Made by a program: the position numbers and the translations under genes
Assembly: GCF_029227855.1 (NCBI RefSeq)
Contig: NZ_CP074356.1
Reading direction: 5' to 3' (one strand)
Length of the DNA: 64,000 bases
Source of the DNA: Escherichia coli
GTDB taxonomy: Bacteria; Pseudomonadota; Gammaproteobacteria; Enterobacterales; Enterobacteriaceae
Shown here: positions 63,589 to 64,000 of the stretch, one piece after another
How positions within the stretch are numbered: position 1 is the stretch's first letter
Layout: each line of letters begins with the position of its first letter
Notes under the pieces: generated by a model
Seen by the model: only the letters and a program-made list of their open reading frames with translations
The model's database searches: none
Told to the model about the DNA's origin: nothing

Positions 63589-63799
63589 GCGTTCATTAAT
63601 TTGATTTATTCTCATCCATCAGCGCTTTTAACTCCTCCGGCATAAACGGTGGTTTGCGTCGGTGCAACATCGCATGGCAATTAGGGCACACAGGCAGCAA
63701 AAAAACAAATGAGATCAAGGTAATATATCTTCACTTGCAGGCTTGAACAGCAGAAAATTTGCGAGCATGATCGCAATTATTTCACTGCCAGGGATATCA

Positions 63800-64000
63800 A
63801 TGGCTTCCAGTAAATCGCTACAGCAGGCAATTGCCAATATAAAAATCTGGCATAAGGGTGAACAGCGCGCACCGCATAAACCATTGTTATTGCTATACGT
63901 ATTAGCGGGATACCTGAATGGACATCCACGCCTTTTCGATTATGGATCGGAAATCTACGAACCTCTGCACAGTTTACTGGAACGTTTTGGGCCACAGCGT
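63800..64000 (+). CDS. Unidentified protein, N-terminal 67 codons only (runs off the window end)
   Basis: ATG at 63800; MASSKSLQQAIANIKIWHKGEQRAPHKPLLLLYVLAGYLNGHPRLFDYGSEIYEPLHSLLERFGPQR with no stop before the window end. Confidence 0.4.
   Translation, partial: MASSKSLQQAIANIKIWHKGEQRAPHKPLLLLYVLAGYLNGHPRLFDYGSEIYEPLHSLLERFGPQR

What the first reader, a model, noticed from the sequence alone, without database searches (positions are those of the whole stretch)
63589..64000. Unidentified gene fragments at the window end beyond nanS
A plus-strand ORF starts at 63800 (MASSKSLQQAIANIKIWHKGEQRAPHKPLLLLYVLAGYLNGHPRLFDY...) and continues off the window. On the minus strand at about 63601..63700 there is a short frame ending ...LPVCPNCHAMLHRRKPPFMPEELKALMDENKSN, which has a CxxCH motif reminiscent of HNH or zinc-finger nuclease C-termini but no convincing start. 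These may be remnants or parts of a variable locus flanking nanCMS, and I cannot identify them confidently.
Basis: seen in the sequence. Interest (0 to 1): 0.3.

Follow-up and report, generated by a model that had tools for sequence, protein, structure and literature searches.

The report
EcoWI-like phosphorothioate restriction gene plus HNH remnant
The plus-strand ORF is the start of an intact, already characterised kind of restriction enzyme that cuts sulfur-modified (phosphorothioated) foreign DNA, and the minus-strand piece is the dead tail of a neighbouring McrA-like nuclease gene lost through a 583-bp deletion, so the finding is real but ordinary.

Summary
Both observations are real and both fragments can now be identified. 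The window end is 100% identical to E. coli E24377A.

The plus-strand ORF (63800 to the window end) is codons 1-67 of an intact 290-aa gene.
- It scores 438.6 bits against NCBIfam NF045808, "phosphorothioated DNA-binding restriction endonuclease" (cut-off 180).
- Its N-terminus resembles the ScoMcrA sulfur-binding domain and its C-terminus is an HNH_2 nuclease.
- It is 286/290 identical to the syntenic protein of E. coli W, presumably EcoWI. EcoWI has been shown to cut GpsAAC/GpsTTC DNA at N7/N6 and to restrict dnd+ plasmids.

The minus-strand fragment (63596-63701) is the last 35 codons plus stop of a 216-aa ScoMcrA_N-HNH (McrA-like) gene.
- That gene is intact in other E. coli.
- Here a 583-bp deletion between 12-bp direct repeats (ACAGGCAGCAAA) removed its start, head domain and catalytic histidines.

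Among 5426 complete E. coli genomes:
- 1706 keep the full restriction gene.
- 1237 keep the HNH gene body.
- 326 keep both.
- K-12 keeps only a 248-bp scrap of the restriction gene.

Nothing here is new, so interest is low.

The parts
63800..64000 (+). First 201 nt (codons 1-67 of 290) of the phosphorothioate-dependent SBD-HNH restriction endonuclease gene (RefSeq WP_000168560.1; EcoWI orthologue). The gene continues 672 nt beyond the window.
   Evidence: Searches give the sequence, annotation and translation. NCBIfam NF045808 scores 438.6 bits against a cut-off of 180. Pfam HNH_2 matches residues 182-236. In the PDB, the ScoMcrA SBD (5ZMO) matches at E 6e-8 and the TagI HNH at E 8e-6. The protein is 286/290 identical to the syntenic E. 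coli W protein.
63875..63895 (+). Codons H26-K27-P28-L29-L32 (HKPLLLL). These are the part of the sulfur-binding cavity that lies inside the window and align with ScoMcrA H116-R117-P118. The partner residues M74-P75, which align with ScoMcrA Y164-P165, lie just beyond the window end.
   Evidence: The HMMER alignment to 5ZMO is. The roles of H116, R117, Y164 and P165 are described in PMC6224610. The SBD motif KPzzLL...PF..L..W is given in PMC7461809.
63790..63794 (+). Shine-Dalgarno-like AGGGA, 5 nt upstream of the ATG at 63800.
   Evidence: Read directly from the sequence. This is inference only.
63596..63701 (-). Dead 3' remnant (35 codons plus stop) of a 216-aa ScoMcrA_N-HNH (McrA-like) endonuclease gene. 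It keeps the invariant DLxPVCPNCHAMLHxxxPP block but lacks the start codon, the head domain, the first CxxC and the catalytic HxHH.
   Evidence: It is 98% identical in DNA to the intact allele in RM12761 and matches intact alleles in strains C4 and WAT. A profile search of the PDB hits the ScoMcrA head at E 3.9e-11 and the EcoKMcrA HNH at E 7.9e-5. RefSeq annotates 63596-63700 as 'HNH endonuclease, missing N-terminus'.
63690..63701 (.). Deletion junction. This is the single surviving copy of the 12-bp direct repeat ACAGGCAGCAAA, which occurs twice, 583 bp apart, in the intact allele.
   Evidence: BLAST pieces overlap by 12 nt. The repeat lies at L002 2606 and 3189, and once in the window at 63690.
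63702..63799 (.). Remaining intergenic DNA upstream of the restriction gene, formerly the divergent control region of the two genes. It contains the palindrome TTGCGAGCATGATCGCAA at 63759-63776. No sigma-70 consensus promoter was found in it.
63507..63596 (-). 29-aa ythB-like small ORF, antisense to the nanS 3' end. Its ATG overlaps the stop of the HNH remnant (TAATG). It is context, not part of the restriction gene.
   Evidence: K-12 has ythB annotated at the equivalent place.
62608..63588 (+). nanS, full length (326 aa). It marks the conserved left border of the variable locus.
   Evidence: 320/326 identical to K-12 NanS.

Best explanation
Window 63589-64000 covers the boundary between the conserved nanCMS operon and a variable defence locus.

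The plus-strand ORF is the 5' end of an intact, solitary, modification-dependent restriction endonuclease of the SBD-HNH type, an orthologue of EcoWI. The mechanism below is carried over from the characterised family and was not tested on this protein.
- The N-terminal sulfur-binding domain (about residues 5-142) reads an Rp phosphorothioate in the DNA backbone through a hydrophobic cavity. The cavity residues here would be H26, K27, M74 and P75.
- The protein acts as a dimer.
- The C-terminal HNH_2 nuclease (residues 182-236) cuts both strands a few bases away. For EcoWI this is GpsAAC/GpsTTC N7/N6, with Mg2+.
- The result is that incoming DNA from dnd+ donors, whether plasmid or phage, is destroyed. 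The host's own unmodified DNA is spared, so no partner methylase is needed.

The minus-strand fragment is a non-functional relic. It is the last 35 codons of a second, divergently oriented type IV-like nuclease gene (ScoMcrA_N head domain plus McrA-type HNH). A 583-bp deletion between two 12-bp direct repeats inactivated that gene, which looks like slippage or microhomology-mediated deletion.
For: Shown by tools:
- 100% identity to E. coli E24377A, and an uninterrupted 290-aa ORF.
- NCBIfam PT-DNA_restrict at 438.6 bits over 283 of 284 profile positions.
- Pfam HNH_2 at E 5e-10.
- PDB hits to the ScoMcrA SBD at E 6e-8, with the H-K/R-P and (Y/M)-P-F-W cavity residues aligned, and to the TagI HNH at E 8e-6.
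- PADLOC HNH and type IV restriction enzyme models.
- 286/290 identity and identical synteny (nanS, HNH remnant, gene) with E. coli W.
- For the remnant: two BLAST pieces at 98% identity flank a 583-bp gap, with a 12-nt overlap.
- The intact 216-aa alleles carry ScoMcrA_N (PF26345) plus HNH.
- The catalytic H161/H163/H164 and the start codon lie in the deleted part.

From the literature: EcoWI biochemistry and in vivo restriction of dnd+ plasmids come from PMC7461809. The mechanism of sulfur recognition comes from PMC6224610.
Against: - No experiment on this particular allele exists. It differs from the E. coli W protein at four positions (G155R, H208Q, F276Y, G278V).
- The equation 'E. coli W protein = EcoWI' is inferred. 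It rests on REBASE naming convention, the SBD-HNH domain architecture and size (33.3 kDa computed against 33.4 kDa reported). The paper gives no accession.
- No promoter was recognised upstream, so expression in E24377A is not shown.
- I did not check whether E24377A carries dnd or ssp genes.
- Only 23% of the gene lies inside the window.
Confidence: 0.92

Rival explanations
1. The plus-strand gene is an SBD-HNH family member that is inactive or has a different specificity in this strain. It could be a silent or decaying gene, or one that reads another PT context or unmodified DNA.
For: The locus is decaying in most E. coli. Only 1706 of 5426 genomes keep at least 80% of the gene, and K-12 keeps 248 bp. 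No consensus promoter was found. The protein has four substitutions relative to the E. coli W protein.
Against: The ORF is intact. It scores far above the family cut-off along the full profile. The cavity residues and the HNH_2 motif are conserved. The four substitutions lie outside the aligned cavity residues and outside the C182/C185/H202/C221/H224 core as read from the sequence.
Confidence: 0.06
2. The minus-strand piece is not a dead relic. It would be a functional small ORF (40 aa from TTG at 63718) or a regulatory element kept by selection, for example a leader for the ythB-like ORF that overlaps its stop codon.
For: The same deletion allele is widespread. By subtraction, roughly 1500 genomes carry it, including the distant strains UTI89, W and E24377A. 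The TAATG overlap with the downstream 29-aa ORF is preserved.
Against: - The fragment has no ATG and no recognisable ribosome site.
- The frame upstream of the junction is unrelated intergenic DNA with stops.
- The fragment lacks every catalytic residue.
- K-12 lacks it entirely yet keeps ythB.
- Wide distribution is explained equally well by one old deletion spread by descent and recombination.
Confidence: 0.03
3. The head-HNH and SBD-HNH genes form one two-component system, a 'split ScoMcrA'. Loss of the head-HNH partner here would then change or disable the activity of the remaining enzyme.
For: Together the two proteins carry three of the four ScoMcrA domains (head, SBD, HNH). They are adjacent and divergent in 326 E. 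coli genomes.
Against: - EcoWI is active alone in vitro and in vivo (PMC7461809).
- E. coli W itself has the deletion allele.
- About 1380 genomes keep only the restriction gene and about 910 keep only the HNH gene (by subtraction).
- Homologues of the head-HNH in Pantoea, Citrobacter and Shewanella have no SBD-HNH neighbour.
Confidence: 0.04

Closest known systems
EcoWI (SBD-HNH phosphorothioate-dependent restriction endonuclease; Lutz et al. 2020, PMC7461809)
   Same: Both share the same two-domain architecture and the same length (290 aa). This protein is 98.6% identical to the E. coli W protein at the same chromosomal position, with the same flanking HNH remnant. The SBD motif KPLLLL...PFW.L..W reported for EcoWI is present.
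   Different: There are four amino-acid substitutions and this allele has not been tested. That the E. coli W protein is EcoWI is inferred, not confirmed from an accession.
ScoMcrA / SprMcrA (Streptomyces type IV PT-dependent endonucleases; PDB 5ZMM, 5ZMO, 7CC9)
   Same: The sulfur-binding domain is homologous (E 6e-8), with cavity residues H, K/R and P aligned. Both are HNH nucleases and both restrict PT-modified DNA.
   Different: ScoMcrA has four domains (head, SBD, SRA, HNH; 561 aa) and also reads modified cytosine. This protein has only SBD and HNH. ScoMcrA Y164 is Met here. According to PMC7461809, the Streptomyces enzymes need Mn2+ and cut at variable distance.
EcoKMcrA (E. coli K-12 e14 McrA; PDB 6GHC) and the ScoMcrA_N-HNH family (PF26345 + PF01844), for the minus-strand remnant
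   Same: The intact allele has a McrA-type HNH with CxxC...HxHH...CPNCH (profile E 7.9e-5 to 6GHC) and a ScoMcrA-type head domain (E 3.9e-11 to 5ZMM). Many homologues are named '5-methylcytosine-specific restriction enzyme A' by their sources.
   Different: The N-terminal domain is the ScoMcrA head, whose function is unknown (PMC6224610). It is not the EcoKMcrA 5mC-reading domain, so the target of the intact enzyme is unknown. In this window only the last 35 codons survive.

Membership tests
PT-dependent SBD-HNH restriction endonucleases (NCBIfam NF045808; EcoWI-like) | Full-length match to the family profile above the curated cut-off | tested here: met
   438.6 bits against a cut-off of 180. 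Residues 6-289 cover profile positions 2-284 of 284.
PT-dependent SBD-HNH restriction endonucleases (NCBIfam NF045808; EcoWI-like) | N-terminal sulfur-binding domain with the conserved cavity residues (ScoMcrA H116, R/K117, Y164-position, P165) | tested here: met
   Residues 5-142 align to 5ZMO at E 6e-8. H26, K27 and P75 are conserved, and M74 sits at the Y164 position. PMC6224610 reports that this position varies among homologues and that Y164M binds more strongly.
PT-dependent SBD-HNH restriction endonucleases (NCBIfam NF045808; EcoWI-like) | C-terminal HNH (beta-beta-alpha-metal) nuclease domain | tested here: met
   Pfam HNH_2 at E 5.1e-10, residues 182-236 over the whole 66-position model. 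TagI HNH at E 8e-6. PADLOC HNH model at E 6.7e-25.
PT-dependent SBD-HNH restriction endonucleases (NCBIfam NF045808; EcoWI-like) | Preferential cleavage of phosphorothioated DNA, and restriction of dnd+ DNA in vivo | not testable with these tools
   Shown for EcoWI in PMC7461809. Inferred here from 98.6% identity to the E. coli W protein.
PT-dependent SBD-HNH restriction endonucleases (NCBIfam NF045808; EcoWI-like) | Host lacks a PT-modification (dnd/ssp) system of matching specificity | not tested
   No dnd genes are annotated in the 31 kb next to the gene. The rest of the E24377A genome was not examined.
ScoMcrA_N-HNH (McrA-like) endonucleases, for the minus-strand remnant | ScoMcrA_N head domain | tested here: not met
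   The domain is present in intact alleles but lies wholly inside the 583 bp deleted from the window.
ScoMcrA_N-HNH (McrA-like) endonucleases, for the minus-strand remnant | Complete HNH motif, including the catalytic HxHH and both Cys pairs | tested here: not met
   Only the second CxxC-H block (PVCPNCHAMLH) survives. C141/C144 and H161/H163/H164 are deleted. The piece is therefore a remnant derived from a family member, not a functional member.
ScoMcrA_N-HNH (McrA-like) endonucleases, for the minus-strand remnant | Orthology of the surviving piece to the 3' end of an intact gene at the same locus | tested here: met
   98% DNA identity and the same position after nanS.

The most novel reading that the evidence does not exclude
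The divergent pair (ScoMcrA_N-HNH and SBD-HNH) next to nanS could be one ancestral two-enzyme module with complementary targets, whose halves are lost reciprocally in different E. coli lineages. The uncharacterised ScoMcrA_N head domain, present in more than 7000 homologues, might then be a reader of a DNA modification that has not yet been assigned. The window itself shows only the relic of that second gene.
Probability: 0.06. Interest if true: 0.4.

Novelty: already known. Interest (0 to 1): 0.1.

Why it matters
The practical gain is a better annotation of the window end. The two unidentified fragments become a named gene start, for a PT-dependent type IV/IIM restriction enzyme, and a named pseudogene remnant with a defined deletion junction.

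The locus also shows that the DNA just past nanS is an active, decaying defence hotspot in E. coli. Different strains hold different combinations of the two nucleases there. In some strains Zorya II lies upstream of the pair, and in this strain a Type III-like R-M cluster with a DrmD-like helicase lies downstream.

None of this changes current understanding. The enzyme family, its mechanism and its use (EcoWI-seq) are published.

Tried and rejected
- Pfam and NCBIfam scans of only the in-window pieces (67 aa and 40 aa) gave nothing useful. Both fragments are too short, so identification needed the flanking genome.
- Four look-ups in PMC7461809 and its supplement, and one in PMC9521924, found no accession or source strain for EcoWI. 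The link to E. coli W therefore stays an inference.
- The promoter scan found no sigma-70-like site upstream of the restriction gene.
- The Rfam scan of the region found nothing at E up to 1.
- A literature search for this site as a named defence hotspot (nanS + defense + hotspot) returned nothing relevant.
- The idea that the minus-strand remnant derives from an inverted copy of the SBD-HNH gene itself was rejected. The intact allele has a different N-terminal domain (ScoMcrA_N) and a different HNH subtype, PF01844 rather than PF13391.
- The 'split ScoMcrA' pairing idea was tested by looking at the neighbourhoods of three distant homologues and is not supported.
- MAFFT misplaced the deletion gap, so the BLAST coordinates were used for the junction instead.

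Full report
**1. Checking the observation**

The sequence shows an ATG at 63800, five bases after an AGGGA. The open frame from it reaches the last base of the window, giving 67 codons that begin MASSKSLQQAIANIK.... On the minus strand a frame reads ...LLPVCPNCHAMLHRRKPPFMPEELKALMDENKSN and stops at 63596-63598. Upstream of about 63701 the same frame runs into stop codons, and the only possible start is a mechanical TTG at 63718.

**2. Source and extension**

Bases 63400-64000 are 100% identical to E. coli O139:H28 E24377A (NC_009801.1) and to seven other complete genomes. Window coordinates equal locus L001 coordinates plus 54399.

In that genome the plus-strand ORF continues to 873 nt, giving a 290-aa protein (WP_000168560.1). 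RefSeq calls it "phosphorothioated DNA-binding restriction endonuclease". RefSeq annotates the minus-strand piece (63596-63700) as "HNH endonuclease, incomplete, missing N-terminus". I tested both labels independently.

**3. The plus-strand gene**

- The full protein scores 438.6 bits against NCBIfam NF045808 (cut-off 180), across essentially the whole profile.
- Pfam finds a complete HNH_2 domain at residues 182-236, E 5e-10.
- Against solved structures, residues 5-142 match the sulfur-binding domain (SBD) of ScoMcrA (5ZMO, E 6e-8). Residues 170-250 match the HNH domain of TagI (E 8e-6).
- In the ScoMcrA alignment, H26-K27-P28 pair with H116-R117-P118, and M74-P75-F76-W77 pair with Y164-P165-F166-W167.
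- Liu et al. (PMC6224610) showed that H116, R117, Y164 and P165 form the sulfur cavity. They also report that R117 is usually Lys in homologues, that the Y164 position varies with sequence context, and that Y164M binds more strongly.
- The in-window part (codons 1-67) contains the HKPLLLL half of that cavity, at 63875-63895.

**4. Relation to a characterised enzyme**

Lutz et al. 2020 (PMC7461809) characterised EcoWI, an SBD-HNH enzyme with a predicted mass of 33.4 kDa.
- It recognises GpsAAC/GpsTTC and cuts at N7/N6, leaving 1-nt 3' overhangs.
- It works with Mg2+ and is a dimer in solution.
- It cuts better when two modified sites are present.
- In vivo it abolishes transformation by dnd+ plasmids with GpsAAC modification.

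The paper gives no accession or source strain. By REBASE naming convention, which I know independently, EcoWI should come from E. coli W, so I fetched the nan-fim region of E. coli W (NC_017635.1). It has the same arrangement: nanC, nanM, nanS, a 105-nt HNH remnant, and then a 290-aa PT-DNA restriction endonuclease, WP_000168572.1, of 33.3 kDa. The window's protein is 286/290 identical to it. I therefore regard the window's gene as an orthologue of EcoWI. The last link (W protein = EcoWI) is inference.

**5. The minus-strand fragment**

A search with the 221 bases around it showed that in many genomes the same flanks are separated by an extra 583 bp or so. In strain RM12761 that extra DNA completes a 216-aa "HNH endonuclease" gene on the minus strand. 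Intact alleles also occur in strains WAT and C4.

BLAST of the window against RM12761 gives two 98%-identical pieces whose ends overlap by 12 nt. The 12-mer ACAGGCAGCAAA occurs twice in RM12761, at L002 2606 and 3189, and once in the window, at 63690-63701. The window allele is therefore a 583-bp deletion between short direct repeats. The deletion removed about 181 codons, the start codon and 26 nt upstream.

The intact protein belongs to a large family, with 7085 hits at E up to 0.001. Members carry Pfam PF26345 (ScoMcrA_N) and usually PF01844 (HNH), and several sources name them McrA. A 17-sequence profile hits the head domain of ScoMcrA (5ZMM, E 3.9e-11) and the HNH domain of EcoKMcrA (6GHC, E 7.9e-5). 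The surviving 35 codons hold the invariant DLxPVCPNCHAMLHxxxPP block. The first Cys pair and the invariant H161/H163/H164 are gone. The fragment is a dead relic.

**6. Population context**

Counts are among 5426 complete E. coli genomes.
- 1706 carry at least 80% of the restriction gene.
- 1237 carry the body of the HNH gene.
- 326 carry both side by side, shown by a concatenated query and by the strain C4 example.
- 4859 retain at least a scrap of the restriction gene. K-12 keeps 248 bp at 90% identity between nanS and yjhR, and no HNH remnant.
- By subtraction, roughly 1500 genomes carry the same deletion allele as this window. These include UTI89 and E. coli W, so the deletion is old or has spread by recombination. 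This is an estimate, not a direct count.

Other strains differ further. In some, Zorya II genes and a nanM fragment lie directly upstream of the pair. In others, ISEc23 cuts the restriction gene.

Downstream of the gene in E24377A lie a 100-aa hypothetical ORF, then a Type III-like Res/Mod pair with a DrmD-like SNF2 helicase, then a CP4-type island. From my own knowledge, this corresponds to the distal edge of the leuX-associated KpLE2-type island of K-12. I did not test that.

**7. Are the two genes a system?**

EcoWI works alone, and E. coli W itself has only the remnant. Each gene often occurs without the other. Homologues of the head-HNH in Pantoea, Citrobacter and Shewanella have no SBD-HNH neighbour. 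I conclude that they are two independent solitary nucleases that happen to sit together in a defence hotspot.

**8. Other checks**

- No Rfam family matches the region.
- No sigma-70 consensus promoter was detected upstream of the restriction gene. A palindrome, TTGCGAGCATGATCGCAA, lies at 63759-63776.

**9. Verdict**

The plus-strand ORF is an already known kind of gene, a PT-dependent SBD-HNH restriction endonuclease and EcoWI orthologue. The minus-strand fragment is a deletion remnant of a McrA-like ScoMcrA_N-HNH gene. Novelty: already known. Interest: low.

Noticed in passing
window 62608-63588 (+): nanS is a full-length 326-aa ORF, 320/326 identical to K-12 NanS. RefSeq for E24377A, and for many other genomes, annotates only 62608-63174 as a 'partial, missing C-terminus' sialate O-acetylesterase. 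This looks like an annotation artefact rather than a real truncation.
   Followed up: partly
window 63507-63596 (-): A 29-aa ORF (MNAHLSRQNCKIASTNLSEIIPRRAAALK) lies antisense to the nanS 3' end, at the position of K-12 ythB. Its ATG overlaps the stop of the HNH remnant (TAATG), so in intact alleles it would be translationally coupled to the HNH gene.
   Followed up: no
window 63759-63776: A perfect 6+6 palindrome with a 6-nt spacer, TTGCGAGCATGATCGCAA, lies 24 nt upstream of the restriction gene's ATG. It is conserved in alleles with the intact divergent gene pair. It could be an operator or a hairpin, but its function is unknown.
   Followed up: no
window 57680-59276 (L001 3281-4877): In this genome fimD is annotated as 5'-truncated, with an IS1 element beside it. 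No fimB, fimE, fimA, fimI or fimC is annotated between the IS1 and nanC. The type 1 fimbrial operon therefore appears to be disrupted.
   Followed up: no
beyond the window: L007 19681-29098 (NC_009801.1 4887680-4897097): There is a three-gene cluster: a DrmD-like SNF2 helicase (PADLOC DrmD, E 1e-199), a 1040-aa Type III methyltransferase and a 1126-aa Type III restriction helicase. It converges on the PT restriction gene, with an unassigned 100-aa ORF in an AT-rich spacer between them.
   Followed up: partly
L004, L009, L010 (strains EC974, RM13514, C4): In these strains type II Zorya genes (zorA2, zorB2, zorE) and a nanM fragment lie directly upstream of the HNH/PT-restriction pair. Some genomes have two or three places that match the region, so the module also occurs outside the nanCMS context.
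   Followed up: no
L002 2512-3448 (strain RM12761): The 'intact' head-HNH allele of this strain has Tyr in place of the first Cys of the invariant CPNCH block. The neighbouring PT restriction gene has ATA in place of ATG and is annotated as only a 150-nt 5' fragment (missing its C-terminus), with an ISEc23 element about 0.8 kb downstream. Both genes may be defective there.
   Followed up: no
L014 (Citrobacter freundii homologue P0045): A ScoMcrA_N-HNH homologue lies about 2.5-4 kb from genes with dnd-type Pfam hits: a cysteine desulfurase-like Aminotran_5, DNA_S_mod_dnd_assoc_4 and an SMC/AAA_23 DndD-like protein. This neighbourhood may bear on what the uncharacterised head-HNH enzymes sense.
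   Followed up: no
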